The translations under genes were made by a program, and so were the position numbers. A stretch of 54,847 nt of DNA, taken from assembly GCA_001275005.1 (NCBI GenBank), contig JWZX01002689.1, forward strand, positions 1 to 54,847. Direction: 5' to 3'. Each line of letters starts with the position of its first letter. The stretch's first letter is position 1. Positions 1 through 50,856 of the stretch are shown here, piece by piece. This stretch comes from Chrysochromulina tobinii. Taxonomy: Eukaryota. The notes beneath the pieces were generated by a model that saw only the letters and a list, made by a program, of their open reading frames with translations, ran no database searches and had not been told where the DNA came from.

Positions 1-448
1 TCCTCTGCAGAGAAGCGCACGAACCCCGACCGTCGTTCTCGTTGCCGTTCTCGCTGCAGTGCCGGCGGTGCCGGCGGAGAGGACGGAGGAGGCGGAGCCG
101 GAGACGCCGAGACCTGTTCCTGTGCGGCGCAATTCGATTGCGCCGATGCCGGCGAGGCCTGCGCGGACAGGGCCCCAAGACTCCCGAGCGGTGAAATGCT
201 CATCGCCCTTTCGCTGCCGCTGCGCGCGGCGTCATCCTTCGCCTCTTCGAGCTCGTCGTCCTCCTTCTCCTCGTCGCCCTTCTCATCCTCCTCTGATGCT
301 ACCGGCGTCCCATCGACAGTTGAGCGCTTGTCGTATGCGGGATCAGAGCCGAAATCGAGGTGCGCAACTGTCTCTGCAAGGGCCCTGATGTCCTCGGCAG
401 TAAGCCGCTGTGACCGCCGTGCCTCGCGCTGCGGTGCCGGTGGTATCA

Positions 449-449
<1 letters not shown>
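1..449 (-). CDS. Probable 5' part of a hypothetical protein running off the left edge (acidic then Pro/Arg-rich); start uncertain
   Basis: The minus frame is open from about 542 to the window edge and reads LIPPAPQREARRSQRLTAEDIRALAETVAHLDFGSDPAYDKRSTVDGTPVASEEDEKGDEEKEDDELEEAK...MSISPLGSL...PPPPSSPPAPPALQRERQRERRSGF. The Ser-rich plus-strand ORF 196..885 is its shadow. The first in-frame ATG is only at 203. Confidence 0.45.

Positions 450-486
<37 letters not shown>
449..486. repeat. (GCTT)9 microsatellite between divergent genes
   Basis: Perfect tetranucleotide run seen directly. Confidence 0.95.
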
Positions 487-593
487 GCTCGACTGTTTTC
501 AAGTTCTCGCCAGTTTTCAAGATTTTTGAGACAAAAGATTCTTCACCGTCGCGCCGGTCTTCTCGCTCCCAAGCCGAGGCTCCCTCTGGCAGG

Positions 594-2420
594 ATGCTCC
601 TCGTCCTGCTGGCGTTGCCGGCCTTCGTGTTCCCGCCACCCATGGGCATGCGTTCTTCGCAACCGGCGTTTGCGTTCGTCCTTCCAAGGAGGAGCGCAAA
701 CGTGGTTGCGACAGGACACGGGGCAGAGCAAGGCCCGGGCGAACATGATTCTCATGTGGATCACGACGACCACGGCTACGGTCACGCGGTTGTACATCAC
801 GAGGCAACAGACGGTGGCGAGCACCACGGCGGCCATGCTTCTTATGAGGCCGCAGATGGTGGCTCGGAGGGCGGCGTCTCCGTGAACGTCAACGTGGCCG
901 AACATGGTTCTCACGAGGCCTCGGCCCAAGACAACCACGAGCATGTAGTTGTTGATCGCGAGGCGGACGGCGGGCACGGCGATAACGAGGTTGCGGATCA
1001 TGAAGAGCACGGCGGGCAGGCGCACAGCGGGCATGCGCACGGCGGCCCCGAAGACGGGCATGATGCTCCCGGCGGCGAGCACGAGGTTGCGGATCAGGAG
1101 GTGCACGGCGGGCAGGCGCCCAGCGGGCATGCACATGGCAGCCACGAAGACGGGCACGCGCACGGAGGCGAGCATGGGGTTGCCGATCATGAGGGGCACG
1201 GACATGCACATGGCAGCCACGAAGATGGGCACGCGCACGGCGGCGGGCTCGAGGTTGCAGATCATGCGGGGCACGGACATGCACATGGCAGCCACGAAGA
1301 CGGGCACGCGCACGGAGGCGAGCATGGGGATGCCGATCATGAGGGGCACGAACTTGCACATGGCAGCCACGAAGATGGGCACGCGCACGGCGGCGGGCGC
1401 GAGGTTGCAGATCATGAGGGGCACGGACATGCACATGGCAGCCACGATGATGGGCACGCGCACGGCGGCGGGCACGAGGTTGCAGATCATGAGGGGCACG
1501 GGCATGCACATGATCATGAGGGGCACGGACACGCACATGGCAGCCACGAAGATGGGCACTCGCACGGCGGTGGTCACGGGGTTGCAGATCATGAGGGGCA
1601 CGGACACGCACATGGCAGCCACGAAGATGGGCACGCGCACGGCGGCGGGCACGAGGTTGCAGATCATGAGGGGCACGGGCATGCACATGATCATGAGGGG
1701 CACGGACACGCACATGGCAGCCACGAAGATGGGCACTCGCACGGCGGTGGTCACGGGGTTGCAGATCATGAGGGGCACGGACACGCACATGGCAGCCACG
1801 AAGATGGGCACGCGCACGGCGGCGGGCACGAGGTTGCAGATCATGAGGGGCACGGGCATGCACATGGCAGCCACGACGACGGGCACGCGCACGGCGGCGG
1901 GCACGGGGTTGCAGATCATGAGGGGCACGGACATGCACATGGCAGCCACGAAGATGGGCACGCGCATGGCGGCGAGCACGGGGTTGGGGGGCACGAGGCC
2001 GCACATAGTGGTGCGGAGGGCGGCGTCACCGTGAACGTCAATGTCAACGTGAACGGGGCCGCCGAAGAGCACGGCCACGGCCACGAGAACAACGGCGGGC
2101 ATGCTCACGGCGGCCATCACGGCGTCGACGACCACCATCACGGGGGCGGGCATGGCCATCATGGGGGGCACCACAGCGGTCACCATCACGCCCATCACGA
2201 TGAGGAGGAAGAGGAGGAGGAAGAAGAGGAAGAGGAGCACCACCACCACCACCACCACGGAGGCGGGCATGGCCATCATGGGGGGCACCACAGCGTTCAC
2301 GAACATGGCCACCATCACGGGGGGCATGGCCATCATGGGGGGCACCACAGCGGTCACCATCACGCCCATCACGACGAGGAGGAAGAGGAGGAGGAAGAAG
2401 AGGAGGAGGAAGAGGAAGAG

Positions 2421-2455
<35 letters not shown>

Positions 2456-2912
2456 GGAGCACCACCACCACCACCATCACGGAGGCGGGCACGACCATCA
2501 CGGGGGGCATCACGGTGGGCACCACAGCGTTCACGAACATGGCCATCACGGGGGCCATCACGACGTCCACGACGACGGCGGGCACCGGCACGTGTCGTAC
2601 GTGTCAGACGACGGCGGACACTTTGGCTCCTTCGACGGCGGCGATGGCGATGGCAACCTTAATTTTTTGTTTTTGCCGCTTGCGACCCTCTTTGGCATTG
2701 TCTTGGGCATCATCATCCGCGACTCGCAGCTGCAAAACGTGTACTATGGCGACGGCGGCTTTCCTCCGCCTTCGGGCGGCTTTCCTCCGCCTTCGGGCGG
2801 CTTTCCTCCGCCTTCAGGCTTTGGTGGCTACTCGCCGATGAGCTTCCGCCAACCGTTCGACGGCCGTCCATCTCGATCTCCATACGATATGTACCGTGAT
2901 GATTACTATTGA
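594..2912 (+). CDS. His/Gly-rich repetitive type I membrane protein with poly-Glu and poly-His tracts
   Basis: ATG at 594 gives signal-like MLLVLLALPAFVFPPP. Then 25-aa His repeats, two Glu tracts each followed by H7, a TM helix (LNFLFLPLATLFGIVLGIII) and a short tail with GGFPPPS x3 and Tyr-rich end. Confidence 0.85.
1128..1995 (+). repeat. Coding tandem repeat, ~75-nt unit (VADHEGHGHAHGSHEDGHAHGGGHE), about 11 copies, with a 177-nt higher-order duplication
   Basis: gcacatggcagccacgaagatgggcacgcgcacggc recurs. The 59-aa block containing the DHEGHGHAH insert occurs twice. Confidence 0.9.
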
Positions 2913-18582: not shown

Positions 18583-21500
18583 CTATTTCTTCTTCTCCGC
18601 GGACTTCGGACCGCCTGGTGTGGTCTTCTTCGCGCCCAGGGGGGACGGCTTCTTGTCGGCAGTCCTGCCGCCACTCGTCAAGGCGTACGCGCGGCGCTGA
18701 ATCCTCCGGAAGGCGCCGTTCAGCTCCCTGTAGTCCAGCTTGCCCGAGCCATCTGGATCGAGGGCCTTGAACACCTTAGCCGAGTCAGCCTTGCTGCAGC
18801 CGAAGCCCATGCCGTTGAGCGCCTGGTGGAACTCCGAGACGTCGATAAAGCCGCTCTTGTCGTCGTCCCACGAATTGAAGAGCTCGAGCACACGCCCCTT
18901 GGACTCTTTGAGAGCCTGCTGCAGCGCCCACTGGACGTACTCCGCCAGGTCCACTGTGCCGCCGCCGTCGAGGTCGAGCTGCACGAAGAGCTTCTTGAGC
19001 TCCTCGTCGGACATTTTAGCGGTCGGGTCGTGCTCCGGGTCGCGCATGCGTACCATGTTGCAGAACTCGTCGAACCCGAGCTCGGAGTTGCCGTCCTCAT
19101 CCGCCTTGAAAAAGTCATCCGCCTTGATCTGCATATTCGATCTGAAGTCGCCTCTCCCCTCGCCGAACACATCGCTCGCTTCAGCATTGGGGGATGTCGA
19201 GCGGGGTCTGTTTGTCGCCTTCTTGAGCCCCAGGACCCCCGCGATCCCCAAGCTTTTCTTGAGGAATTTGTTGAGCTCTTCAAAGTCAATTGAACCCGAC
19301 TTGTTGGGGTCGAACTCGTCGAAGGCCGCTTCGATGACCTGTCTGGGGAAGTCCGCTCCAATCTTCGCCCACGCGGCGATCCACTCCTTCCTATCAATCT
19401 CGCCGCTGCCATCGGCATCAAAGTCGCGGAACAAGTCCATGACGCGCATGTTTTTGGAGCTGAGGTATTCCTTGAGCGACTGAGCCACGGTCTTGGTCTT
19501 GTCGTAAGGGATCAGGGGGGGCGGCCCGGCGGCGGGCACCGCGACCGGCGGCGGGCGCGCCTGCGCGAGCTTGAGTTTGGCGCGCAGCTCGTCGATCTCC
19601 TTGAGGAGCTCCTTTTGGATGACGTGGCGCTCGCCCTCGAGCTGCGAGCGCTGCTCGTCGAGCATGCGCCGGAGCATCTTAGCCGCCGCCTCAGCGTCCT
19701 TGATCTGGCGAGCACTCAGCTCTTCCTTGGCGCGCCGTTCCGCCTCGAGAGCCGCCTCGGCCTCCTTGCGCAGCTGCTCGAGCTGCTGCCGCTCCGCGTG
19801 GGCGCCACGCAGCGCACGCGCGAGCTCCTCGGCCATGCGGTTCGCCGCCATGCGCATCTCGTCAAGCGAGGTCGAGAGCATTGCATTGCGCTCCTCGAGC
19901 TCATCGCGCTGCTGCAACACATTCGCCATGGCCGTGTTGTTGCGCGCGTCCTCGCTGGCGTACTTGGCCATCTCGGCCGCCTTGCGCCCCACTAGCGCCT
20001 CGAGCTCCCAATCCCGCTTCCAGGACGAGTACCCTGCGCTCAGCTTGGGCTTCGTCAGCCGCAGCGACGCGGCACGCAGCAGCCGCTGGCGCCGCGTCTT
20101 CTCGAACCACAAGTCGATCCAAGAGGTCATACCGCGCGACAGGTCCTTTGCCAGGATGCGCCGCGCCGCCATGCGCTGGAGGTGCGCAATGCGCTTCTCC
20201 TTCTCCTCCTCGCGCTGGCGCTGCATCTCGAGCTCAGCGGCCGCTTTGCCGCCGTCGAGCGCCGACAGCTTGTTGAGCAGCTCCTCCCGCTCGCGATTGA
20301 GTCGCACATTCTCCTTTTGGAACGCCGTCCGCTCCGCTAGCACCACTTCGAGCTGCTGTGTCTGGAAGCTCACGCTCGCCGCGAGGGCCGCCTGGCGGGC
20401 CGCGAGCCAGTCGCGGTTCCAGTGCGAGTACGCATTCGCGAGCTTCGGCTTCAAAAGCCGGCCCGCCGCGCTCTGCAACATGCGCCGCTTCTCGACGCGC
20501 TCTGTGTACAAGTCGTGCCACTGTGTCCAGCCGCGCAGCAGGCCCTGCTTTCCGAACCTGTGTGCGGCCATCGTCTTGATCTGCTCGATGCGACGCTCCT
20601 TCTCCTCCTCGAGCTTGCGCCGCAGCTCGGCTTCGCGCTCGGCCGCTCCGCCGTCCAAGGAGGAGAGTTTTTCGAGGAGCGTCTCGCGCTCGCGCTTCGC
20701 CGCCTCGAGCTTCTTCTCGTACTCGTTGCGTTGCCGGAGCAGCTCTTGCTGAGCATCCTCGAGCTTGAGAGTTTCGCGCCGCAGCCGCTGCTCGGCCGAG
20801 CCGCTCGCGCGTGCGATCACCGTCGCGCGCTCCCAGTCCACACGCCAACTCGAGTACGATGCAATCAGCTTGGGCTTGGTCAGGCGCGCGGCCGCCTTCT
20901 TGAGCAGGTTGCGCTGATACACCTTGTGGGACCACATCTCATGCCAAGCTGACCAGCCCATTGCAAGCTTCCCATTGATCATGCGCTTGAGCCCCAGCTG
21001 CGCCAGGTGCTGCACGCGCTTCTCCTTCTCCCTCTCGAGCTCCTCTTGGGCGAGGCGCATCATCTCGGCCTCCTGGCCGCGCCCGTCCAGCATCGCCGCA
21101 CGCGCGTCGGCGAGCTCCTTGTGTAGTTGGGCATTCGCCGCCTGAGCCGCCGCGAGCTCGTCGAATGCGTTCTTGAACTTGAGCTCCTTGCTGTGTGTGT
21201 TCGCGGCAGACATATGAGCCGTCCAGTCGTGCTTCCAGTGCGAGAGCGATTGGATGAGCTTGGGTTTGGTCAGGCGCGAAGCCGCCTTCTTGAGCAGGTT
21301 GCGCTGATACACCTTGTGGGACCACATCTCATGCCAAGCTGACCAGCCCGTTGCAAGCTTCCCATTGATCATGCGCTTGAGCCCCAGCTGCGCCAGGTGC
21401 TGCACACGCTTCTCCTTCTCCATCTCAAGCGCGCGCGCCATCTCAAGCTCCGCCGCCGCCAAGCCGCCATCGAGTTGGCTCAGCTTCTTGAGCAGCATAT

Positions 21501-24500
21501 CGCGCTCCTGAATGGCGGTTGTGAGCTTCTTCTCGAGCTCCTTCTTGACACGCTGCAGCTCCTGCTCGGCCTCGGCGGCCTCGTCGGTCGCCTTCTTGAG
21601 AAGTTGCTCGTGCGTGAGCTCCATATGCGCGTGGGCCTCCGCGTCCCACGAGTGCTTCCAATGGCCGTACGATCGGATGAGCTTGGGCTTGGTAAGCCGC
21701 AAAGCCGCCTTCTTGAGCAGGTTGCGCTGATACACCTTGTGAGACCACATCTCATGCCAAGCCGACCAGCCCATTGCAAGCTTCTGATTCATCATACGCT
21801 TGATGCCCTGCTGGCCCAGAGCTTGCACGCGCTTCTCCTTCTCACGCTCAAGCTCCTCTTGGGCGAGGCGCATCATCTCGGCTTCCTGGCCGCGCCCGTC
21901 CAGCATCGCCGCACGCGCGTCGTCTAGCTCCTTTTCAAGCTTTGCCACTTTGGCCTCGGCCGTGGCGCGCTTTGTCGCCTCGTCGTACAGCTTCTGCTCC
22001 TGCGTCAACGAGGAGAGCCGGCCAACCTCTGCCATGAAGTCGTGCTTCCATTGCTGGTACGACGCGACGAGCTTGGGCTTGGTCAGGCGCGCAGCCGCCT
22101 TCTTGAGCAGGTTGCGCTGGCGCACCACGTCTGACCACATCTCATGCCATGCTGACCAGCCCATCGCGAGCTTCTGGTTCATCATGCGTTTGAGCCCCTG
22201 CTGGCCGAGCGCTTGCACGCGCTTCTCCTTCTCACGCTCAAGCTCCTCCTCGGCAAGGCGCAAGAGCTCAGCTTCCTGGCCGCGGCCTGCGAGCATGGCC
22301 TTGCGCGCCTCGGCGAGCTCCTGAGTAAGCTGCTTAACCTGCGCAACAAGCGAGCCCTGCTTGGCAGCCTCCGCCTCGAGACGCGCTGCCGCCTGTGACG
22401 CAGCATCTGCTCCCATGAACTCCGTCCAGCCGTGCTTCCAGAGCGAGTACGACGCGATCAGCTTGGGCTTGGTCAGGCGCGCAGCCGCCTTCTTGAGCAG
22501 GTTGCGCTGATGCACCTTGTGGGACCACATATCATGCCATGCCGACCAGCCCATCGCGAGCTTCTGGTTCATCATGCGCTTGAGCCCCTGCTGGCCCAGA
22601 GCTTGCACGCGCTTCTCCTTCTCGGCCTCGAGCTTCTTCTGCATCTCTATCTCGGCCGCCGCCATGCCACCGTCGAGTGCCGTCAGGCGACGCAGCAGGT
22701 CATCGCGCTCCTTGTGTGCAACGGCAAGCTTCTTCTCGCTCTCGACATGCACGCGCTCCAGCTCCTTTTCCAACGCTGTGCGCCGCTCGGCGTGGTTCAT
22801 TTCGTGGCTGGCATACGTCTCGAGCTGCGCCGCGGCCATCGCTCGTTCCCAGTCGTGCTTCCAATGCGAGAGCGCTTGAATGAGCTTGGGCTTGGTCAGC
22901 CGCGCGCCCGCCTTCTTGAGCAGGTTGCGCTGGTGCACCTTGTGAGCCCACATCTCGTGCCATGCCGACCAGCCCATTGCGAGCTTCTGATTCATCATAC
23001 GCTTGATGCCCTGCTGGCCAAGCGCCTCGACGCGCTTCGCCTTCTCTTTCTCGAGCTCCTCCTCCTGCAGCCGCCTGAGCTCCGCCGTTCGCCCATCACC
23101 GTTGAGCATGGCCTTTCGGGCGTCCTCGAGCTCCTTGCGGAGCTTGCGAACCTCAGCCTCGGCAGCTGTGCGCGCTTTGAGCTCTTCAACGTACTTTTGC
23201 TCCACCGTCATCGCTGCTGCGGCACCAAGCGTTGCCGTCCAGTCGTGCTTCCAGTGCGAGAGCGCTTGAATGAGCTTGGGCTTCGTCAGCCGCGCGCCTG
23301 CCTTCTTGAGCAGGTTGCGCTGATGCACCTTGTGAGACCACATCTCATGCCATGCCGACCAGCCCATCGCGAGCTTCTGATTCATCATACGCTTGATGCC
23401 CTGCTGGCCCAGAGCTTGCACGCGCTTCTCCTTCTCCTTCTCCAACTCCTCTTCACGCAGCCGCTGCAGCTCCGCCTCGCGGCCGTTGCCGTTGAGCATT
23501 GCCGTGCGCGCTGCGTCGAGCTCGGTCCGCAACTTGAGCACCTCCTTGCGAAGGTCGGCGTTGATCGCATCGCGCTCGGCCGCTGCCTGGGCTGCCTTCT
23601 CGGCGAGCGTCATCTTCGCTGATGCCGCCTTGTCGGTAGCCCAGTCTTGTTTCCAGTGCGAGTACGTCTGAGTAAGCTTGGGCTTGGTCAGCCGCGCGCC
23701 TGCCTTCTTGAGCAGGTTGCGTTGGTGAACCTTGTGGGACCACATCTCATGCCACGCCGACCAGCCCATTGCGAGCTTCTGGTTCATCATGCGCTTGAGC
23801 CCCTGCTTGCCGAGCGCCTCGACACGCTTGAGCTTCTCCCTCTCAAGCTCCTCCTCGGCAAGACGCTTGAGCTCAGCCTCACGCCCGCCACCGGCGAGCA
23901 TGGCGGCCCGCGCCTCGGCGAGCTCCTTCTTCACCTTAGTCAGCTCGACAAGCACCTTGTCCATCTCGGCACTCTGGCTCGAAAGCTGACCCGCCTTCTC
24001 TGCCTGGGCTTCCTTCAACATCTCCATCTCCCAGTCCCGCTTCCATTGCTGGTACGACCCGATGAGCTTGGGCTTGGTCAGGCGCGCGCCTGCCTTCTTG
24101 AGCAGGTTGCGTTGGTGAACCTTGTGGGACCACATCTCATGCCATGCCGACCAGCCCATTGCAAGCTTCTGATTCATCATGCGCTTGATGCCCTGCTGGC
24201 CGAGCGCCTCGACGCGCTTCTCCTTCTCGGCCTCGAGCTGCCTCTGCATCTCCATCTCGGCTGCCGCCTTGCCGCCGTCGAGGGCGTAGATGCGCTTGAG
24301 GAGCTCGTCACGCTCCTTGACCAGGGCGGCGATCTTCTTGGCACTCTCAGCCTCCACGCGCTCGAGCTGCTGGCCCAGAGACTCGTAGCTCGAGGCCGCC
24401 GCTTTCTGCGCCTGTGCCTGCAGCGTCAGGTCAAAGTCTTTGAACCAATGAGAGTAGGCGGCCGAGAGCTTGGGCTTTGTGAGCCGGTTGGCGGCCTGGA

Positions 24501-27500
24501 GCAGAACGCCACGCTCATAACGCCTGGCCTCATACTTGTCAAACCATGTCGTCCACGCAGCGGTGAGTGCCTTGTTGAACACACGGGAGATTGCGCGCTT
24601 CTGCACGATCGCAATGCGCTCCTGCCTCTCCGACTCGAGCTTTTCGGCCAGCCGGCGCTGGATCTCGGCTTCGCGTCCGCCGCCGTTCATAGCGAGCTCG
24701 CGCGTGTGCTTGAGCTCGGCGGTGAGCTTCGCAAGCTTCTCCTCGAGCTCCTGACGAGCGAAGACCTCGGCCGCGAGCCTCTGTTCGCCCGTCATGGACA
24801 TCTGCGCCGCAGCGAAGCTCTCCCAGTCCTTCTTCCACTGCGAATAAGATTGGATGAGCTTGGGCTTGGTCAGCCGCGCGCCCGCCTTTTTAAGCAGGTT
24901 GCGCTGATGCACCTTGTGAGACCACATCTCATGCCAAGCCGACCAGCCCATTGCGAGCTTCTGGTTCATCATGCGCTTGATGCCCTGCTGGCCCAGAGCT
25001 TGCACGCGCTTCTCCTTCTCCCTCTCGAGCTCCTCTTGGGCGAGGCGCTGCAGCTCCGCCTCGCGGCCACTGCCGTTGAGCATTGCCTTTCGGGCGTCTT
25101 CGAGCTCCATGCGGAGCTTGGCATTCTCGGCTTCCGAAGCCTCGCGTGCCTTCAGCTCGGTGACATACTTCTCCTCGATAGTCATCGAGGCCAAAGCGGT
25201 CAACTCCGATTCCCAGTCCTTCTTCCACTGCGAATAAGATTGGATAAGCTTGGGCTTCGTCAGCCGCGCGCCTGCCTTCTTGAGCAGGTTGCGCTGATGC
25301 ACCTTGTGAGACCACATCTCGTGCCAAGCCGACCAGCCCATTGCAAGCTTCTGATTCATCATGCGCTTGATGCCCTGCTGGCCCAGAGCTTGCACGCGCT
25401 TCTCCTTCTCCTTCTCCAACTCCTCTTCACGCAGCCGCTGCAGCTCCGCCTCGCGGCCGTTGCCATCGAGCATTGCCGTGCGCGCCGCATCGAGCTCGGT
25501 CCGCAACTTGAGCACCTCCTTGCGAAGGTCGGCGTTGATCGCATCGCGCTCGGCCGCTGCCTGGGCTGCCTTCTCGTCGAGCGTCATCTTCGCTGATGCC
25601 GCCTTGTCGGTAGCCCAGTCTTGTTTCCAGTGCGAGTACGTCTGAGTAAGCTTGGGCTTGGTCAGCCGCGCGCCTGCCTTCTTGAGCAGGTTGCGTTGGT
25701 GAACCTTGTGAGACCACATCTCATGCCAAGCCGACCAGCCCATTGCAAGCTTCTGGTTCATCATACGCTTGAGCCCCTGCTTGCCGAGCGCCTCGACACG
25801 CTTGAGCTTCTCCCTCTCAAGCTCCTCCTCGGCAAGACGCTTGAGCTCAGCCTCACGCCCGCCACCGGCGAGCATGGCGGCCCGCGCCTCGGCGAGCTCC
25901 TTCGTGAGCTTGTCGACCTGCTTCGCCAGATCCGAGGCATCCTTGACACGCTCGGCCAGCTCCCGCTCGCGCTTCTGCTCCTTGGTCAGGAACTTGGAGG
26001 CCGCCTGGTCGGCGTCCCAGTCGCGCTTCCAGTGCCCATACGATTGGATGAGCTTGGGCTTGGTCAGGCGCGCAGCCGCCTTCTTGAGCAGGTTGCGCTG
26101 GCGCACCACGTCTGACCACATCTCGTGCCATGCCGACCAGCCCATCGCGAGCTTCTGGTTCATCATGCGCTTGAGCCCCTGCGAGCCCAGTGCCTCGACG
26201 CGCTTGAGCTTCTCCCTCTCAAGCTCCTCCTCGGCAAGGCGCTTGAGCTCAGCCTCACGGCTCGAGCCGTCGAGCGCAGCCTTGCGCAGGTCCGAGAGCT
26301 CCTTGCGCAGCCTGTTAAGCTCCATCTCCGTCTCGCGGTGGCGATGCTGCTCGTCGGCCAGCTGCTGGGCGACGGACATTGTCTTGAGCTTGGCGAATTC
26401 TGCGCCCCAGCTGGCGCGCCAGTGTCGGTACGATGCGACGAGCTTGGGCTTGGTCAGGCGCGCACCCGCCGCCTTGAGCATATTGAGTCGGCGCACCTTT
26501 TCGGCCCACATCGTGTGCCAGCCCGACCAGCCCATCGCGAGCTTCTGGTTCATCATGCGCTTGAGCCCCTGGCTGCCGAGCGCCTCGATCCGCTTCTCCT
26601 TCTCCTTCTCGAGCTGCTCCTGCGCCAGGCGCATGATCTCACGCTCGCGTCCCGTTCCCGTGAGCGCCGATTCGCGCGCGTGCTTGAGCTCCAGGCGTAA
26701 AGAGTCAAGCTCCTGCATGGCGATCTTGTACTTGGCCTGTTCCTCGGCGAGCAGCTGGTCCGTCGACTTGGCCGCCTGCACGAGCTTGTCCGCCGCCCAC
26801 AACTGCTTCCACTCTGAGTAGGACGCGATGAGCTTGGGCTTGGTCAGCCGAGCGCCCGCCTTCTTGAGCAGGTTGCGTTGGCGCACGTTTTCGAACCACA
26901 TCTCATGCCAGCCCGACCAGCCCATTGCAAGCTTCTGGTTCATCATGCGCTTGAGCCCCTGCTGGCCGAGCGCCTCGACGCGCTTCTCCTTTTCGGCCTC
27001 GAGCTGCTGATGCATGCGCTGCTCGGCATCAGCCCTACCGCCGTCCATTTGCTGAATCTGCGCAAGAGCTCGCTTGAGCTCCGACGCCAGATCGTCGAGC
27101 TCGCTCTGCAGGCGGCTCTCGTTGGCGCGCGCCTCGCTCAGCTGCTGGTTCTCGCTCTTGCCCAACTGTGCAAGGGAGGGCCACAGGCACGAGCGGATCA
27201 GAAGAAGGGCTAGCATCTCGCATGAATGTGCACGTTCACGACAGAAGGCACGGTATGGGTAGACACGGAGCGACGAGCGGACGGGGCGAGCGTGCTCCGA
27301 TTCGCACCTTGGCCTTCTCGCCGGCCGTCCATTCACGCCGCCAAGAGGCATACGCGGCCGACAGCTTTGGACGTGTGAGGCGGTTCGCTGCCGCCTTTAG
27401 CAGCCGGAGGCGGCGGCGCTTCTCGATCCACGGCTCGTGCCACGCGGACCAGCCCATGGCGAGCTTTTGGTTGAGCATGCGCTTGAGGCCGACCTTGCCA

Positions 27501-28836
27501 AGCTGCTCGATGCGCTTCTCCCTCTCGAGCTCGCGCGCGTGCTCCACCCCGGCCTTGGCCTCGTTCTCCAAGCGCGACGCATCGGTCAGGCGCATACGCC
27601 TCTCGTGCTCAAGGGCCGACTCGGAGCCGTCTCGCAGGCTGGCGATCACGTCTTGCAACTCGCGGACCTCATCGTGGTGCGCGCGACGCGCGTCCTTGAG
27701 CGCTTGGTCACTGGCGCCCTTGGCATGGCTCGTCTCTTCGAGCGCTCGCGAGGCGACTTCGAGCTTGAAAGACGTGTCGTCGAGCTGCTCCTTGAGAGAG
27801 CTGACTTCGCGCTGCAGCTGGCGGATGAGCGCATCCTTGGCGTCCATCTCTGCACGCATGCCCGCGGCCGCCGCGTCGGTGTCCGACTCGAGCTTACGCA
27901 GCTCGGTCTCGAGGGCGCGCCGCTGCTCCGCCATGGCGCGCGCCAGCTGCTTCTCGCCCTCCCTCCGTTCGGTGGCCACTTGATGCGCTTCCTCGCGGGC
28001 GCGCTGCACGTCGATGAGGGCTAGCTCTTCGCCTACGCGTGCGAGCTGACGCTCCTCGCGTTCCTTTGCGAGGCGGTCCTGGGCGGCACGCAGCACGGCG
28101 GCAGTCACGCTCAGCTCGTACTGCAGCTCCTCGGCTGCGGGCCGCCGCGCGCCCGGCGTCGTGAGCACCGTCGACAGGTGCGGAGCTGCCAGGAGATGCT
28201 CCCCGGGCGTGAGCACTCCATGATAGCCCTTGGGAGCAGGCGCAGAGCCCGGGCGGTACACCTGCATCGCGCCCGTGTAGGGTGATGGTCGGCCGCCGCT
28301 GCCGCGCATCACCGCCGCCGAGGTCGGCCGCCCCGGCGCATGCGGCAGCGTCGAGGCGAGTGGCTGCGGTGAGAAGTCGACGATGGTCATCGTCCCCTCG
28401 GGCGGCGTGACGTAGTTGCTGCCGGGCCGTGACTTCGGGCGGCCGCGGGTCGGGCGCGGGCCTGGCGTGGGCGACTCCTGCAGCACTTCGATGTTGTCTG
28501 AGACGATTGTGAACATGTCGGCTGGAGCGGCTGGAGCAGAAGGCTTGGGGCCTCCGCCGCTCGACCATGCGGTGGGCACAGGCTCGCGATGGCTCGAGGT
28601 CTCATAGCGCGAGCGTGGCGGTAAGACGACAACTGGCGCTCCGGCCGCCCTGCAGAGAAGAAGGAAGCGAGGGGCAATACACGTGAGAGCTTGTTGGTAA
28701 TGCGTGAGGCGCACGTGCAAGCGAGGCGGTGCGAGAGCGAATGATGACTCCTTTGCGGGACGGGCGGACGCCGGGCGCACATGTTGTTTGTCGACCCGTC
28801 AGCATTGTCGTAGCGCGCCACGTAGCTGCCGAACAT
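18583..28836 (-). CDS. Giant (~3,326 aa) Sfi1-like repeat / coiled-coil protein with six C-terminal EF-hands; exons 28836-28781, 28649-27308, 27165-18583
   Basis: Two GT-AG introns join three ORF segments in frame (NNM|AAGAP split codon, and EKAK|LGKS phase 0). About 19 modules of RMMNQKLAMGWSAWHEMW...ARLTKPKLIQSYSQWKKDW. EF loops DADGSGEIDRKE, DPNKSGSIDFEE, DEDGNSELGFDE, DLDGGGTVDLAE, DDDKSGFIDVSE, DPDGSGKLDYRE. Confidence 0.88.
27166..27307 (-). other. Spliceosomal intron (142 nt), phase 0
   Basis: Donor AAG|GTGCGA, pyrimidine-rich acceptor CCCTCCCTTGCACAG|TTG. Removing it fuses ORF 27236..28780 to ORF 18583..27351 in frame. Confidence 0.85.
28650..28780 (-). other. Spliceosomal intron (131 nt), phase 2
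   Basis: Donor AT|GTGCGC, acceptor TTCCTTCTTCTCTGCAG|G. Removing it joins MFGSYVARYDNADGSTNN to MAAGAPVVV. Confidence 0.75.
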
Positions 28837-42019: not shown

Positions 42020-45000
42020 CTAGACGCGCATCGCAGCCATGCGATCAAGCGCAGTACCAGAGTTAACTAATGTAGATTTCGCCGGCGTTTTGATTTGCGT
42101 GTCCTCCGCATGCACATGAGGGTTGAAGTCGAGGGGCGGGGAGAGTGACATGGAGACGGATCGTTCTGTCACCCCTCTCGTGAACGAAGCCGTCCGTGAT
42201 GTCACTCCAATAGATCGGACCAGGTAGTCGGTCGCTTGCCCAACGCCTTGGAGCACGCGGCTGGTGGTGGCTCGAGGCGAGGTCGAACTTTGATCTGGTG
42301 AGTCCCGGGTGAGCGCAGGGTCAAACTCATCAGTTGCTCCCGGTGAGGAGCGACCAATAGAAGGACCATATGACAAGTGATCGATCCTCTCCTCGCGCTG
42401 CAGCCAGCTAAAGATGTCGCTGCGTGTGTTCGTCCTCGCAAGCGCGATGCACACGAGACGTTCCCACTCTGCGACCCAGCAGTACCACCCACGATGCACG
42501 CGCGAAAGTCGCAAGTAGACCTCGCCGATGCGCGCACGCAGCACCAAGGGCGCGCGCTGTAAACGTGCCTGACGTTGAAGCACCCACGAGCGCCACGCGC
42601 GGTACATGGCTCGCTGCCGCCTCCATCGCTCAGCGCGATTCATGGACTCCTCGAACAGCTTGCCCTCGTAACACCTGTAGTACTTGGAGACCCACGTGGG
42701 CGGCTGCTGCCAAAAGTTGAAGGCCTCGGCGAGCAGCAGCAATGCGAAGCGGTGTGTGCATGCCCGCAGCCGCTGCCACATTAGGGAGCGTCGGCGCCAC
42801 TGGTCGGCACACAAGTTGAACGCGCGCCACGTCCTCACAAGTTGAGTGCCACGAGTAGAAACCCACGAGTTCAATGCGACCCACGAGTTGAACGCGCGCG
42901 ACATTTCGAGATTGCGGAGCTTGCGTGCAGTCCGGCTGAGCATCCGCTCAAGCGCCGCGCGGCGCATCTTGCTCTCCTTGCCTAGAGGAAGTTTGATGGG
43001 CAGCTGCTCCAAGGAGTGCGAAACTGACTCGGCCGCGTCGGCCACCGTCTCCGCGACTGTGTAGATGCCCCTCCACACTCCCATCAGCGCGCTCAAAGGC
43101 TTGCTCACCACCTTCTTGACGCGCGTGGCTCTGGCTGTAGGAATGTCGGTGGTGGTGGGGGGGAGGCTTGGGATGTGCAGGTTGTCACGCCACCAGTCGT
43201 CGGAGGTCGGGGCGCTGTTGAGAGGGTCCGATGCAGCGTGTGGTCTTGTCAGTTCGAGTTCCGCGCGCAACGGCCCCGACTCACGCTCGAGCCCGAACGT
43301 GGTGAAGCCGCCAACATAGCCCCCCCTGGAAGGAGCTGCGCGCACCGGCTCCAAGTCGGGCACGGGCACGATCGTGGTGAAGCCACCTATGTACCCCCCA
43401 CTGCCTCTTTGGGGGCTTGCCAGTCCTGGTTTCTTCTTCGACGGGCTCGGCGGGCTCAGGGCGGCCGGGTCATCGGTGGTGGGGAGGGGCAGGAGGCGAG
43501 GGGAGACTGCCGTCTGTGGGGAGACTGCCATCTGTGGGGAGACTGCCGTCTGTGGGGAGACTGCCGCCTCCTCGAGCACCGCTTCCGCTACCACCACCAC
43601 TACCCCTGGCTCGGAGTGAAGCGCTTGCGCCCGTTCTTCGGCTTCGCGCGCACGTGCCTCGGCGGCTGCGAGTTGACGGCGCATCGTAGCCTCGCGAGCG
43701 GACCAAGCTGAGGCTTTGGTGGACTGGCCGGCTTGCTCCACCACCTCCAAGAGCCTATCTACGGTCTTGTGGGCTGTGTGCAGCTCGGCAGTTAGCTCAC
43801 GCAAACGTGCCTCGCGCGACTCCCTGGCCGCCTCGGCCAGCATGGCCGCCGCCTCGGCCGCCTCGGCGGCTGCATCGGCCGCCGTCTGGGCCGCGAGCCA
43901 ATCTCGCGCTGCTGCGTCCGCCTCGGCCGCCGTCACGGCCGCTGTCTTGCTCGACTCCCGGACCGGCGCCTCGCTGCGCCTCGCGACGACCTCTCGGGCG
44001 CCGTCTCGGCCAAGTGCACCCGACCGAGAGAGGTCCTCTCGAATGCATGCACCCGGCCGAGAGAGGTCCTCTGGAATGCATGCACCCGGCCGAGAGAGGT
44101 CCTCTCGAATGCATGCACCCGGCCGAGAGAGGTCCTCTCGAATGCATGCACCCGGCCGAGAGAGGTCCTCTGGAATGCATTCGGGTATGGGTCCGCGTAT
44201 GTTGGACGCCTTGTACGCCGTAGCCACCATCGCACCCTCGGCCACCGCAGCTAGTACCTGAGCCATGTCGGCGTCTACGTCTGCCATGGCCTCTTCTGCA
44301 AGCTCGTCCGGCGTGGAGCTCTCCTCAACCTCAGAGGACCCCACGATTAATGCTAAGAGGGCGTCCACCCTCGCCGCGGCCGCGTCCGCCTCTGCCGCGT
44401 CTGCTTTCTCAGCCTCAGCCTTGGCATCATCAACAGCCAGCTGGGCCGCGGGAGGACTCATCCAATCAAGCGGTTGCCACCACTCCTTGGGAGCGGCCTG
44501 CACAGCCACCGCCTCCCCGTCTGCCGCCTTCTCGGCGGCTGCATTCTCGGCCGCCGCCCTCTCGAAAACCATCCAATCCAGCGGTTGCCACCACTCCTTG
44601 GGAGCGGCCTGCCCGGCCGCCGCCTCCTCTTCTGCCGCCTTGTCGGCCGCCGTCTTCTCGAAAACAATCCAATCAAGCGGTTGCCACCACTCTTTGGGCG
44701 GGGCTTGCCCGGCTGCCGCCTCACCGGCTGCCGCCTTCTTCTTCGCCGCCGCCTCTTCGGCCGCCGCCTTCTCGGCCGCCGCCTTCTCGGCGGCCGCCCT
44801 CTCGGCTGCCGCCCTCTCGGCCGCCGCCTTCTCGGCCTCCTGCCGGAAATGTTTAGCAAACTTGCGTATTGATACGGTGTTGGGCGTTTCGTAGCCGCTT
44901 GCGCCGCAAGGTGTGGGAATCGTCGGACGGTGCGCTCGAGGCGCCTCAAAATGCAGGGTCTTAGGCGCGGATATGATGTCGGTCCACAAGAGCACCATCT

Positions 45001-45241
45001 CATCGGCCGCCGGCTCCTTGCACGGCTCCTCGGATGATGTGGCAGAAGTGAGAGAAGAAGTCATGATGCGGATTCCCTCGGCCGATTCCTCTGCCAGCCG
45101 CTGCCTCATCTTCTGCTGGAGACGAAGGAACTTGCTGGCGCTGTCTTGAACCGTCTGGCTCGCTCGCAGTCTTCGAATGGCTACCATGATTTCTCGACGC
45201 GCATCCATTTCATCTGGCGCTACATGAACATGTAGCGGCAT
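42020..45241 (-). CDS. Large repetitive/coiled-coil protein with C-terminal Sfi1-like W motifs
   Basis: AEKAA repeats, KEWWQPLDW x3, CIREDLSRPGA x5, AVSPQ x3-4, coiled coil, then MSRAFNSW, LAEAFNFW, MYRAWRSW, VHRGWYCW. Confidence 0.7.
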   Translation of the reverse strand: MPLHVHVAPDEMDARREIMVAIRRLRASQTVQDSASKFLRLQQKMRQRLAEESAEGIRIMTSSLTSATSSEEPCKEPAADEMVLLWTDIISAPKTLHFEAPRAHRPTIPTPCGASGYETPNTVSIRKFAKHFRQEAEKAAAERAAAERAAAEKAAAEKAAAEEAAAKKKAAAGEAAAGQAPPKEWWQPLDWIVFEKTAADKAAEEEAAAGQAAPKEWWQPLDWMVFERAAAENAAAEKAADGEAVAVQAAPKEWWQPLDWMSPPAAQLAVDDAKAEAEKADAAEADAAAARVDALLALIVGSSEVEESSTPDELAEEAMADVDADMAQVLAAVAEGAMVATAYKASNIRGPIPECIPEDLSRPGACIREDLSRPGACIREDLSRPGACIPEDLSRPGACIREDLSRSGALGRDGAREVVARRSEAPVRESSKTAAVTAAEADAAARDWLAAQTAADAAAEAAEAAAMLAEAARESREARLRELTAELHTAHKTVDRLLEVVEQAGQSTKASAWSAREATMRRQLAAAEARAREAEERAQALHSEPGVVVVVAEAVLEEAAVSPQTAVSPQMAVSPQTAVSPRLLPLPTTDDPAALSPPSPSKKKPGLASPQRGSGGYIGGFTTIVPVPDLEPVRAAPSRGGYVGGFTTFGLERESGPLRAELELTRPHAASDPLNSAPTSDDWWRDNLHIPSLPPTTTDIPTARATRVKKVVSKPLSALMGVWRGIYTVAETVADAAESVSHSLEQLPIKLPLGKESKMRRAALERMLSRTARKLRNLEMSRAFNSWVALNSWVSTRGTQLVRTWRAFNLCADQWRRRSLMWQRLRACTHRFALLLLAEAFNFWQQPPTWVSKYYRCYEGKLFEESMNRAERWRRQRAMYRAWRSWVLQRQARLQRAPLVLRARIGEVYLRLSRVHRGWYCWVAEWERLVCIALARTNTRSDIFSWLQREERIDHLSYGPSIGRSSPGATDEFDPALTRDSPDQSSTSPRATTSRVLQGVGQATDYLVRSIGVTSRTASFTRGVTERSVSMSLSPPLDFNPHVHAEDTQIKTPAKSTLVNSGTALDRMAAMRV
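44015..44181. repeat. 33-nt coding minisatellite, 5 copies
   Basis: tgcatgcacccggccgagagaggtcctctcgaa repeated (CIREDLSRPGA). Confidence 0.92.
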
Positions 45242-45414
45242 CGGTGCCCGCCCAGGACATCGAAACTTGACAAATTAGGCGTGTATGCCCTTCATTTTGG
45301 TATGCATGTAGTTGAGCCCCTCCCTGCCGCTGGCCTCGTTGGCTCTGCGACACCGACAGCGAAACGTAAACACTATACACCCCCAGGACCACAGGTCCCG
45401 CACCGCCCGCACCG

Positions 45415-47808: not shown

Positions 47809-50043
47809 TTACTCCTTGAACAAGATCCGTTCCATGGCGAGCGCCGAGCGGCCCACGCAATAGTAGTCCTGCCGGCGGCCGGCGACGACAAAGCCCATCG
47901 CGAGGTAGAGAGCTTTGGCGGGCTCGTTGGTCTCGTCCACGTGGAGCGTGCAGCACTGCGCGCGCGCCTTACTTGCCATTTCGAGGGCGTGGGCCATCAG
48001 AGCGCGCCCCACGCCGGAGCGCCGTGCGTTCGGCGCGACGACCAGCTTGGTGATGGCGAGGGTGAGGGAGGAGCGCTGGAGCACTGCGTACCCGACGCAC
48101 GTGGTCGGCGCGTCGAGGGGCGCCGCACAGAGGAGCGTGACACCGCGGCCTCGCACCTCTTTGGCTACGTCCATCGCCTCATGCTTCGCAAACGCGCGCC
48201 GCTCGATGGCCGAGCACAGCCCGACCCAATTCTCATCCGCGCGGGCGGCGATCGAGACGCGCGCCGCCGCCGCCGTCGCGCGCGCATCGACGGTGAGGCC
48301 GCCTGATGCTGGCTCAGGCGCCCGTGTCGCCTCGGCGGGTGCGCGCTGTGGCGGCGGGTCCGGTGGCGGCGGCGGGGCCGGTGGCGGCGGGGCCGGTGGC
48401 GGCGGCGGGTCCGGTGGCGGCGGGGCCGGTGGCGGCGAGGCGCGCGGAGCAGCAGGCGGAGGAAGCTCCTCCGCAGCTGGGGCTGCCAGCGGGGCCGATG
48501 GCACGTCTGCCTGCGCGGTGCTGAAAGTCGGCCCTGGAGGCGAGGGTGGTGCAGATACCGCGGCATCACTGGTGAACACAGCAGCATCACAGGCTGTGCC
48601 ATCCGCCTCACATGCGCGGGGATCACCCGCGCCCTGCGCCTCGCACGCACAGCCGCCCAGCGCCGCCCCGCACGCCTCCGCCCCGACCGTGGGCTCACCC
48701 GAGTCGCCCTTGCAGCAGCGCCCAAGTGTGACGGCGCGCACCTCGTCGGTAGCGTAATTCGCGTACGAGCCACCCGCCTTTGCATAGTTATCCATCGGGT
48801 ACGTTGGCAGCCAGTCGCGCACCCCCAGGGCGATCTCCGCCTCGTACGGCGTGAGCAGCGGCGCCGCGAACGCGTGCCCCCAGTCAATGGAGAGTCGCGG
48901 GCATGCGACCTGGATCCATGCTTCCACATGCTCGATCGCTGCGAGCTTCGCCGGGAAAATCTCCGAGAGGAGTAGCGTGACCTGGGTGCATCCCTTTCGC
49001 GCGAGGAGCGCCTGAAGGTGCTGGAGCACGTCGGGGTTGCCCTGCCGGCCGAGCGTGCCGAGTACCAAGCCCCAGCGTGTCGCGCCGCGCGCCGTCGCGA
49101 TCGCCGCCTGCCTGAGCGCATGCATCCGTCCATGCTCGTATCGCTCGCGCGTGATGGCCTTTGAGTAAGGGTCATACCGGTAGAGCGGCACGTGCGGGTT
49201 CTGGATCATGACCGACTCAGGGTGGAAGCGACCATCGGCCACGAAGACGCACGCGTCGAACCCGTCGAGCTGCGGCGACGTGCATCCCAGCACCTCGCCC
49301 GCTGAGAGGGGTCGGCACTGCGGCAACTCCACCGTGGCGAAGCGAGCGCTGAGCGCGGCGCGCGCGGCGTGGAGCGCGCCCGCAAACTGGATGGTACCAC
49401 ACAGGGCGAGGCGCTGCTCCGGTGCAAAGTTGAGCGCCACCGTGTCCACCAGGTGCGGTGTGTCAATCGAGATCTCGACGAAGACGTAGAGCACGTCGGT
49501 CGCCATGCGATCGATGGGCACGAGGCATGAGTGGCCATAGTGCACGAGCAGCAGGCAGCCGAGCGCGGCGGCGCTCAGGTCGTCGACGCAGCACGCGCCG
49601 TACGTCACGTCGCCCATGATCACGCATTCGACTGCCGCGAAGCGCTCGAGGATGTCAGCGATCGCGCACGCGTACAGCAACAGGCCCTCGGGCATCTGCA
49701 GCGCCACAAGCGGCGGCTCTGACGGCGACAGCTGCTCGGCCGGCCGCTGCGCGATCATCTGCTTGAGGCGCCAGATGGTCTTTGGGATCTCAAAGTTATA
49801 ATTCGGCGGCAGCGCGCCCAGCGCGACGAGCAACTCTGGGTCCTCTGTGATGGCTGCCGGGATCTGCGAGACAAATCGGCGCCGCGGCGGCCGGGCCTTG
49901 GTCACCTTGGGCCCGGCAACGAGCGCCGTCGAGGGGTCAGCTGTGGAAGGCGCCGCGGGGGACTTCGCCGCCCCGAGTCCGCCGAAGCGTGGCCGCGGCG
50001 GCGGCGGCGAGTGAATACCCGGGTCGGAAGGCACGGTTGCCAT
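47809..50043 (-). CDS. DPH1: Diphthamide biosynthesis protein DPH1 fused to a C-terminal RimI-like GNAT acetyltransferase
   Basis: [81 protein letters not shown]-terminal [16 protein letters not shown]...[14 protein letters not shown]...GF...RRQDYY. Confidence 0.92.
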
Positions 50044-50325
50044 GTGGTACGACGTCGCTCTCGCAAGTGAGGTGTGAAATGAGAGACTTCGGCGTCTCGT
50101 CCTTGCTAGGCCGGAGCAACTTTGAGAATGCATCAGTCCCTGAGAATCACCATCCTACTCCGCGTCACTATTGTCGCTGAGCGTGCTGAGCCTCGGTGAG
50201 TTTTGTGTATATCGTGTGATGAGTCCCGTCATCAAGGAAGGCCGCAAGAGAGCTCCTCAAACAAGCCCTGGTGCGACACCAACCGTTGCCTGACCGTCCA
50301 GCTGGCCGGCGCTCGAGCGCGCAAC

Positions 50326-50856
50326 ATGATCAGCAGCTTCACAACCGGCAGCGCTGCCGCACCCAGGAGACCTGACCTCTCCAAGACGCACGCGGCGCGC
50401 GTGCAGGAGGCCTACTCGTCCAAGACTCTTTGCACGCGGCCGCGTGTCCCGATGGGCTTGGACATCGATGAGATGATGCCGGCTACAGCTGATCAAGCTC
50501 AGAGGCTGAAAGACGCCGATTTGGGGAAGGCCGTTACGAGACTCGAAATGCAGCTGGTCGAGGTCCTGTACTCGAGAACAACTGCGCACTTCGGTGAGCA
50601 CCGCGTGTTGAAGAGCGCCTTCAACAAGTTTGATACGGACAATTCAGGCGCGATCGACTTCAATGAGTTTAAGCACGCCCTCGAGTACATCGGCCTACAC
50701 ACGCAGGAGTCGGGCCTTCCCGGCAACGGGGGCATGCCGGAAGTTGTCCTTGAGGCCTTGTTCCGTAAGTACGACCAGGATGGCTCGGGCCAACTGGAGT
50801 ACATGGAGTTTGTCAATGCTCTGCTGGCGAACAAGGATGTTGGCCAGCTGGGTTGA
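50326..50856 (+). CDS. Small EF-hand calcium-binding protein (two EF-hands)
   Basis: DTDNSGAIDFNE and DQDGSGQLEYME canonical loops. Confidence 0.85.
   Translation: MISSFTTGSAAAPRRPDLSKTHAARVQEAYSSKTLCTRPRVPMGLDIDEMMPATADQAQRLKDADLGKAVTRLEMQLVEVLYSRTTAHFGEHRVLKSAFNKFDTDNSGAIDFNEFKHALEYIGLHTQESGLPGNGGMPEVVLEALFRKYDQDGSGQLEYMEFVNALLANKDVGQLG

What the first reader, a model, noticed from the sequence alone, without database searches (positions are those of the whole stretch)
18583..28836. Giant Sfi1-repeat filament protein with its own six EF-hands: candidate Ca2+-driven contractile system (haptonema/flagellar root)
Seen: once two introns are removed, one ~3,326-aa protein contains about 19 modules of ~130-140 aa. 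Each module has two L-x3-(W/Y)-x2-W motifs (KLAMGWSAW and KLIQSYSQW) whose terminal Trp residues are exactly 33 aa apart, followed by a charged coiled-coil spacer with a GxG hinge. The C-terminus has six canonical EF-hands. Established: a 33-aa period with an L/F/W 1-5-8 triad is the Sfi1 centrin-binding repeat, and giant Sfi1-repeat proteins plus centrin/spasmin form the ATP-independent Ca2+-triggered contractile fibres of ciliates. Haptonema coiling is rapid and Ca2+-dependent. Inference: this may be the backbone of a centrin-based contractile fibre in a haptophyte. Paired binding sites alternating with hinged spacers, plus a built-in Ca2+ sensor, is an architecture I do not recognise from described Sfi1 proteins.
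Basis: partly seen in the sequence, partly recalled or inferred. Interest (0 to 1): 0.92.

Follow-up and report, generated by a model that had tools for sequence, protein, structure and literature searches.

The report
Centrin-beaded hinged filament of haptophytes
This expressed algal gene encodes a 3,326-residue protein in which 19 pairs of predicted centrin-binding sites alternate with hinged spacers and end in six calcium-binding EF-hands; it is likely the backbone of a calcium-responsive fibre at the flagella/haptonema base, and gives a testable, unproven candidate for the unexplained coiling of the haptonema.

Summary
One minus-strand gene encodes 3,326 aa, and both introns are spliced in lake RNA contigs. 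It has 19 modules of 130-142 aa and six EF-hands. Its last 3,263 aa are identical to Chrysochromulina tobinii KOO27660.1 ('calmodulin-related protein').

Each module holds two Sfi1-like sites 33 aa apart, a fixed proline, a heptad spacer and a glycine hinge. The sites meet most published Sfi1 features but never the strict consensus, and Pfam and PDB give no Sfi1 hit. A structure predictor puts one centrin on each site (0.66 against best control 0.07), possibly from memory of solved Sfi1-centrin complexes.

The gene belongs to a large family. Every named holder of the paired module is a prymnesialean haptophyte. Tails carry 2-6 EF-hands or a C2 domain. Three paralogue gene models peak with centrins at the end of cell division.

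Best reading: backbone of a centrin fibre at the flagellar/haptonema base that likely compacts on Ca2+. Binding is predicted only; contraction and location are untested. A role in haptonema coiling is possible (~0.15), but centrin is reported only as a dot at the haptonema tip. Verdict: new variant of a known kind.

The parts
28781..28836 (-). Exon 1 (start codon at 28836)
   Evidence: spliced RNA contigs X2, X4
28650..28780 (-). Intron 1, 131 nt, GT-AG
28133..28836 (-). Pro/Ser/Gly-rich N-terminal segment, aa 1-191 (spans intron 1), likely disordered
   Evidence: sequence
27521..28132 (-). N-terminal coiled-coil-like head, aa 192-395; its first helix recurs in relatives P0001, P0009, P0012, P0019
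   Evidence: seen by eye, not scored
20008..27520 (-). Array of 19 modules, aa 396-2852. Each has a 64-aa basic core (net charge +8 to +12) with two Sfi1-like sites 33 aa apart and a Pro in site 2, then a 66-78-aa acidic heptad spacer with a Gly hinge
27166..27307 (-). Intron 2, 142 nt, GT-AG, just after the first core
   Evidence: same junction in KOO27660.1
19570..20007 (-). C-terminal long helix / coiled coil, aa 2853-2998
   Evidence: AF2 helix, pLDDT mostly 85-97
19498..19569 (-). Pro-rich linker, aa 2999-3022
   Evidence: pLDDT under 50 over most of it
19246..19497 (-). Helix plus EF-hand pair 1 (loops at aa 3049, 3085)
18928..19125 (-). EF-hand pair 2 (loops at aa 3155, 3197; each with one non-canonical position)
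18688..18927 (-). Helix plus EF-hand pair 3 (loops at aa 3233, 3269)
18583..18687 (-). Basic low-complexity tail and stop codon

Best explanation
The protein is likely the backbone of a calcium-responsive centrin fibre at the base of the flagella and haptonema: each of its 19 modules is predicted to bind two centrins, and the hinged spacers would let the chain compact when Ca2+ rises. Shown here: the gene, its splicing, the repeat anatomy, the family and the six EF-hands. Predicted: a long helix broken just before the Pro and at the Gly hinge, with one centrin C-lobe on each L-x3-[W/Y]-x2-W-x3-W site. Inferred: (1) the 33-aa spacing lets the two centrins touch head to tail as in yeast Sfi1, making rigid two-centrin beads about 20 nm apart; (2) the heptad spacers pair chains side by side; (3) Ca2+ makes centrin beads associate, folding the chain at its hinges, as proposed for ciliate myonemes; (4) the terminal EF-hands (a C2 domain in some relatives) anchor or cross-link the fibre end in a Ca2+-dependent way. 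My odds for the steps: binds centrin-family proteins about 0.8; Ca2+-driven shortening about 0.5.
For: Sfi1 features in 357 cores from 25 relatives: 357 of 358 matches ungapped; Leu at W-7 in 285 and 300 (sites 1, 2); aromatic or Leu at W-3 in 354 and 324; Ala at W-16 in 319 (site 2). Li 2006's less obvious feature, few charged residues at W-4 and W+4, is met: 0, 0, 0 and 1 of 357 against 30% overall. The profile also hits proteins with continuous 33-aa repeats, one named 'protein SFI1 [Pseudoscourfieldia marina]' (hhalign probability 87%, E 4.5e-6). Complex prediction: score 0.66, best of 3 controls 0.07; mark reached by 51 of 78 solved and 2 of 108 mismatched microbial pairs, and 39 of 65 and 2 of 126 eukaryotic pairs; runs agree in at least 72% of contacts; partner pLDDT at least 67. 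Pro/Gly kinks and Ca2+-dependent compaction are reported for Spirostomum Sfi1 repeats (10.1101/2024.11.07.622534). 72 of 104 relatives with a long tail have EF pairs, and 7 have a Pfam C2 domain. Three paralogue gene models peak at D6 (2.9-4.6 fold), as do 5 of 8 rows named centrin, against 5 of 40 control rows at that strength. Centrin lies around basal bodies and roots in haptophytes.
Against: The strict AX7LLX3[F/L]X2W pattern matches 0 times. Leu at W-8 occurs in 0 of 357 cores; K/R after the Trp in only 7 of 357 at site 1. No Sfi1 family in Pfam scans. No Sfi1 chain in PDB sequence or fold searches. The complex pass may come from memory of solved Sfi1-centrin structures. The centrin used (L028) is a stand-in of unknown host and differs from the C. 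tobinii centrins seen; calmodulin was not tested. Yeast Sfi1-centrin shows no Ca2+ response, and many ciliate Sfi1-repeat proteins are basal-body organisers (PMC5112337). This gene itself was not in the held part of the expression table. Two of the three paralogue models appear to be near copies, so there are about two independent cases, and D6 fits any division-linked gene. No localisation data.
Confidence: 0.45

Rival explanations
1. Static centrin scaffold. The protein binds centrin pairs but works as a non-contractile ruler or connector around basal bodies, like yeast Sfi1 and the Tetrahymena Sfr proteins; the EF-hands only regulate assembly or anchoring.
For: The same motif and prediction evidence. 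Yeast Sfi1-centrin is Ca2+-insensitive. Most Sfr proteins localise to basal bodies. Expression peaks at the end of division.
Against: Near-invariant Pro and a conserved Gly break in each module, features linked to contractile ciliate Sfi1s. A Ca2+-binding tail of two unrelated types. Giant size and multiple paralogues resemble the ciliate contractile families.
Confidence: 0.27
2. Haptonema coiling actuator. The protein and its paralogues form the thin Ca2+-binding filaments along haptonemal microtubules and impose the twist that coils the organelle in milliseconds.
For: All named holders of the paired module are Prymnesiales (C. tobinii, C. parva, Prymnesium polylepis), and ESM clusters are Haptophyta. 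Unidentified thin filaments and Ca2+-binding MAPs are postulated for coiling. C. tobinii has a long, coiled haptonema.
Against: Centrin is cited as only a dot at the distal tip (Lechtreck 2004, seen only as cited in PMC6398456). A shaft fibre with 38 centrins per chain should stain along its length (inference). No microtubule-binding domain was found. Presence or absence in species with vestigial haptonemata could not be tested.
Confidence: 0.15
3. The sites bind calmodulin or a lineage-specific EF-hand protein (a divergent centrin, or free-standing copies of the tail domain) rather than canonical centrin, making a multivalent Ca2+-sensor scaffold.
For: The cores are basic amphipathic helices with Trp anchors. 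Departures from the Sfi1 consensus are systematic. C. tobinii has divergent centrins and a free-standing EF protein resembling the tail, Ctob_008743 (likeness by eye). The predictor cannot tell family members apart.
Against: The fixed 33-aa spacing is explained by centrin-centrin geometry. No IQ motif in the protein.
Confidence: 0.1

Closest known systems
Sfi1/SFI1 of yeast and human (consensus AX7LLX3F/LX2W[K/R]; PDB 2GV5, 2DOQ; PMC2063913)
   Same: Helical chain, L-x3-aromatic-x2-W triad, Ala at W-16, 33-aa spacing, uncharged W-4 and W+4, predicted centrin C-lobe binding.
   Different: Sfi1 has 20-24 continuous repeats. Here sites come in pairs split by 66-78-aa heptad spacers, lack the first Leu, use W/Y at W-3, carry a fixed Pro, and the chain ends in EF-hands.
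Ciliate giant Sfi1-like backbones: Spirostomum GSBP1/2, Stentor Sfi1-1/2/3, Paramecium PtCenBP1 (PMC9946354; 10.1101/2024.11.07.622534; 10.1101/2025.08.11.669701)
   Same: Giant size, regular Trp repeats with gaps between sites, Pro/Gly helix breakers, several paralogues, expanded centrin families.
   Different: Ciliate period is 69 aa with one Trp; here 130-142 aa with two sites 33 aa apart. The passages read mention no EF-hand or C2 tail. Their contraction is measured; this one's is not.
Tetrahymena Sfr1-13 (PMC5112337)
   Same: Multi-gene family of Sfi1-repeat proteins; Sfr1 has two tandem repeats plus an isolated one.
   Different: Sfr1 is small (about 190 aligned residues) with three repeats, and is a basal-body regulator with no reported contraction.
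Algal continuous 33-aa Trp-repeat proteins (P0137 'protein SFI1', Pseudoscourfieldia marina; unnamed P0213, P0229, P0262)
   Same: Detected by the module profile; same RM[L/M]NxxLxx[G/A][W/F]xxW helix. P0213 also carries EF-hands.
   Different: Continuous or 73-aa periods, no Pro, no hinged spacer. Hybrids such as P0183 and P0189 have both forms.

Membership tests
Sfi1 repeat | Trp anchors 33 aa apart | tested here: met
   19 of 19 modules; 357 of 358 family matches ungapped
Sfi1 repeat | Ala at W-16 | tested here: met
   Site 2: 319 of 357 (19 of 19 in this protein). Site 1: Ala 147, Ala or Gly 286 of 357
Sfi1 repeat | Leu-Leu at W-8/W-7 | tested here: not met
   W-7 Leu in 285 and 300 of 357, but W-8 Leu in 0 of 357 at both sites. 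The SFI1-named P0137 also lacks it
Sfi1 repeat | Phe/Leu at W-3 | tested here: inconclusive
   Strict F/L in 44 and 128 of 357; with Trp/Tyr allowed, 354 and 324
Sfi1 repeat | Lys/Arg after the Trp | tested here: inconclusive
   Site 2: 223 of 357 (17 of 19 here). Site 1: 7 of 357
Sfi1 repeat | Few charged residues at W-4 and W+4 (positions 22 and 30 of Li 2006) | tested here: met
   0/0 and 0/1 of 357 against 30% overall
Sfi1 repeat | Match to a curated Sfi1 profile or solved Sfi1 chain | tested here: not met
   No Sfi1 family or chain among hits; the SFI1-named P0137 also fails
Sfi1 repeat | Binds one centrin per repeat through the centrin C-lobe | tested here: inconclusive
   Prediction only: 0.66 against control 0.07, C-lobe residues 97-164 on both sites; may reflect memory of solved complexes
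SFI1 orthologues (centriole/SPB) | 20-24 continuous repeats | tested here: not met
   38 sites in 19 separated pairs
Ciliate contractile Sfi1-like backbones | 69-aa repeat with KGAL start | tested here: not met
   Period 130-142 aa
Ciliate contractile Sfi1-like backbones | Regular Pro/Gly helix breaks | tested here: met
   Pro in 99% of cores; AF2 breaks at residues 49-50 and 110-112
Ciliate contractile Sfi1-like backbones | Ca2+-dependent compaction; localisation to a contractile fibre | not testable with these tools
   Needs bench work
IQ-motif arrays (calmodulin) | [FILV]QxxxRGxxxR motif | tested here: not met
   0 matches; no Pfam IQ hit in this protein
EF-hand Ca2+-binding domain | Paired helix-loop-helix with D/N at 1, 3, 5 and E at 12 | tested here: met
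   Six Pfam stretches, three folded pairs; two loops deviate at one position

The most novel reading that the evidence does not exclude
This haptophyte family is the missing Ca2+-driven, motor-free actuator of haptonema coiling: hinged filaments with two centrin-type sensors every ~20 nm and a Ca2+-gated anchor at one end, evolved independently of ciliate myonemes.
Probability: 0.15. Interest if true: 0.93.

Novelty: new variant of a known kind. Interest (0 to 1): 0.68.

Why it matters
No backbone for centrin fibres in haptophytes turned up in my literature searches, and the proteins behind millisecond haptonema coiling are stated to be unidentified (PMC6398456). This family gives named, expressed candidates with sharp predictions: two centrins per module, a period near 20 nm, and Ca2+-dependent folding at defined hinges. 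If contractile, it would be a second design of ATP-independent Ca2+ actuator beside the ciliate one, with a compact 130-aa unit that is easy to express. It also re-annotates genes now called 'calmodulin-related', 'troponin' or 'hypothetical'.

Tried and rejected
Sfi1 by library: Pfam, PDB by sequence or profile and Foldseek on the two-module model gave no Sfi1 match. The SFI1-named algal protein fails the same way, so this is weak evidence.

Microtubule-inner-protein lead: RIB57-containing entries topped the EF-domain searches, but per domain calmodulin scores as well or better. Rejected.

Separate genes or mis-assembly: rejected. One frame, spliced RNA, and P0002 from another source is 100% identical over the 800 residues scored, with the same module spacings.

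IQ array: 0 matches.

Spacer lengths quantised in helical turns: phase R=0.39 on all 600 spacings, 0.22 on 341 per-protein values, none on the 42 distinct values. Related sequences are not independent, so I do not rely on it.

Higher-order super-repeat: only one recent duplication is clear (spacers 5 and 10, 97%).

Binding of the protein's own EF-hands to its repeats: not tested; the one complex job went to centrin, and the fold output gives no contacts.

Range across haptophytes: most hits are unnamed metagenome proteins. No named Emiliania, Isochrysis, Phaeocystis or Diacronema member appeared among the 28 family or repeat proteins looked up or in the listed hits; this is no evidence of absence.

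No whole genome was held. Earlier scan notes held no look-alike by sequence.
Full report
GENE. A 2,937-codon open frame lies at 18583-27396 on the minus strand. Two GT-AG introns (28780-28650 and 27307-27166) extend it to an ATG at 28836, giving 3,326 aa, about 380 kDa. Lake metatranscriptome contigs skip intron 2 in 3 of 4 runs laid and intron 1 in 2 of 4, and cover the last modules and EF-hands without joints. These are contigs, so they show neither strand nor level, and none spans the gene. Of 53 coding differences I took from those tables (the homogenised repeat edge, rows outside the frame and 13 rows not shown were left out), 36 are synonymous against 23% expected. The last 3,263 aa equal KOO27660.1 of Chrysochromulina tobinii, named 'calmodulin-related protein'.

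ANATOMY. After a low-complexity start and a coiled-coil-like head come 19 modules spaced 130-142 aa. Each has a 64-aa basic core (median pairwise identity 75%) and an acidic spacer (34%). The core holds two L-x3-[W/Y]-x2-W-x3-W sites 33 aa apart, with a Pro inside the second. The spacer has hydrophobic residues in 4-3 steps and a Gly 18 residues before the next core. AF2 on two modules gives long helices (pLDDT 87, pTM 0.31) broken at residues 49-50, 74-75 and 110-112. A long helix, a Pro-rich linker and three EF-hand pairs follow. As pure helix a module is about 19.5 nm and the array about 370 nm.

IS IT SFI1? I tested the published consensus (PMC2063913; passages and sections 5 and 7 read) on 357 ungapped cores of 358 matches in 25 relatives. 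Spacing, Ala at W-16, Leu at W-7 and the Trp are met. So is the low charge at W-4 and W+4 (at most 1 of 357, against 30% overall). Not met: Leu at W-8 (0 of 357), K/R after site 1, the strict pattern (0 hits), and any Pfam or PDB Sfi1 match. The core profile hits 1,608 clusters at E<=0.001 among 1.84 billion representatives; only the best 150 were shown. Of the 146 new ones, a crude split by median spacing gives 125 spaced and 21 closely spaced, the latter mostly continuous 33-aa or hybrid forms (P0234 and a few short ones are misfiled by this rule). One continuous protein is named 'protein SFI1' in a green alga. So the sites are a divergent Sfi1-type repeat, and the protein is not an SFI1 orthologue.

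PARTNER. With two copies of a metagenome centrin (L028, host unknown), ESMFold2 scored 0.66 against a best control of 0.07. The runs agree in at least 72% of contacts and partner pLDDT is at least 67. One centrin C-lobe sits on each site (core residues 16-35 and 49-68). The mark was reached by 51 of 78 solved and 2 of 108 mismatched microbial pairs, and by 39 of 65 and 2 of 126 eukaryotic pairs. Sfi1-centrin structures are solved, so the pass shows likeness and not binding, and it cannot separate centrin from calmodulin.

FAMILY. The first search gave 26 long relatives with 8-30 modules, 23 with EF-hands. Among 221 proteins examined, 185 have two or more strict modules. Of the 104 with a tail of 250 aa or more, 72 have one to three EF pairs. 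Seven proteins end in a Pfam C2 domain instead, and others have neither. A tree of the last EF pair (72 rows, 86 columns, poorly resolved) puts this gene in a starred 20-row group of mostly six-EF proteins. Named holders of the paired module are C. tobinii (three lineages), C. parva and Prymnesium polylepis (four fragments). ESM Atlas neighbours are unnamed clusters, commonest Haptophyta, on few labelled members and with a low recognition value. The range beyond Prymnesiales is open.

EXPRESSION. In the supplement of PMC4580454 (file 1, cut when stored; search hits and parts 198 and 300 seen; section 11 read) this gene was not in the held part. Three paralogue models peak at D6, 2.9-4.6 fold over the other time points; two appear to be near copies. 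Five of 8 rows named centrin also peak at D6, while 5 of 40 control rows do so at that strength. D6 is the end of division, when cytoskeletal and flagellar genes peak. This fits a flagellar-apparatus protein but does not locate it.

MECHANISM. Established: centrin binds Sfi1 repeats by its C-lobe, and 33 aa suits head-to-tail centrin contacts. Ciliate giant Sfi1-like proteins with Pro/Gly kinks compact and self-associate on Ca2+ (passages of PMC9946354, 10.1101/2024.11.07.622534 and 10.1101/2025.08.11.669701). Yeast Sfi1-centrin does not. Inferred: this chain forms rigid two-centrin beads on hinged coiled-coil spacers, and Ca2+ would draw beads together. The swap between EF-hands and C2 at the same end suggests the tail is a Ca2+-dependent anchor. 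For location, centrin is around basal bodies and roots in two haptophytes (passages) and is cited as a dot at the haptonema tip. Coiling depends on microtubules and unidentified Ca2+-binding MAPs, and unidentified thin filaments were seen (passages of PMC6398456 and 10.1101/322453; Lechtreck 2004 not seen). I therefore favour a basal fibre (0.45 contractile, 0.27 static) over a haptonema actuator (0.15) or a non-centrin partner (0.10).

NOVELTY. Searches for Sfi1 with haptophyte (3 papers, listing only), haptonema with centrin, Sfi1 repeat with EF-hand domains, Sfi1 with algal roots, haptonema proteins and the accession (10 of 234 rows shown) showed no description of this family. The library lacks most subscription papers. 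The Stentor domain table is an image and preprint supplements are closed; these could hold an Sfi1-like protein with EF-hands. Gaps between sites are known in ciliates, and P0213 shows EF-hands on a continuous-repeat protein, so the parts are not unique; the paired, hinged module with a Ca2+ tail appears to be. I also read passages of PMC8622359, PMC5112337, PMC3941069 and PMC9010356; the last two added nothing. Verdict: real, new variant of a known kind, interest 0.68.

Noticed in passing
P0019, P0131, P0140, P0141, P0147, P0274, P0276: Relatives with the same paired modules end in a C2 domain with acidic loops instead of EF-hands.
   Followed up: partly
P0183, P0189, P0193, P0207, P0217, P0236: A recurring 700-900-aa hybrid type: Pro-containing paired sites followed by continuous 33-aa repeats; a possible link between continuous and spaced forms.
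   Followed up: partly
window 42020-45274 (-): The C-terminal third of this 1,084-codon frame has several Sfi1-like helices (e.g. L-x3-F-x2-W after 'RKLRNLE'), a second candidate centrin binder in the window.
   Followed up: no
window 414-2912 (+): His/Gly/Glu-rich tandem-repeat protein with an N-terminal signal-like segment, poly-Glu runs and a C-terminal hydrophobic segment; no Pfam match; possible metal-binding surface protein.
   Followed up: no
window 47809-50154 (-): Diphthamide synthesis domain and a GNAT acetyltransferase in one open frame, joined by a Pro-rich linker.
   Followed up: no
window 50200-50856 (+): Small EF-hand pair protein; not a centrin by inspection.
   Followed up: partly
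PMC4580454 supplement, Ctob_008743, Ctob_008960, Ctob_004209: C. tobinii has divergent centrins with acidic tails, and a free-standing EF protein resembling this gene's tail; all peak at D6.
   Followed up: partly
L009/L010, L037/L038: Metagenome contigs with two centrin genes in tandem.
   Followed up: no
window 23239-26208 (-): Spacers of modules 5 and 10 are 97% identical, and those of 6 and 11 69%: a recent internal duplication.
   Followed up: partly
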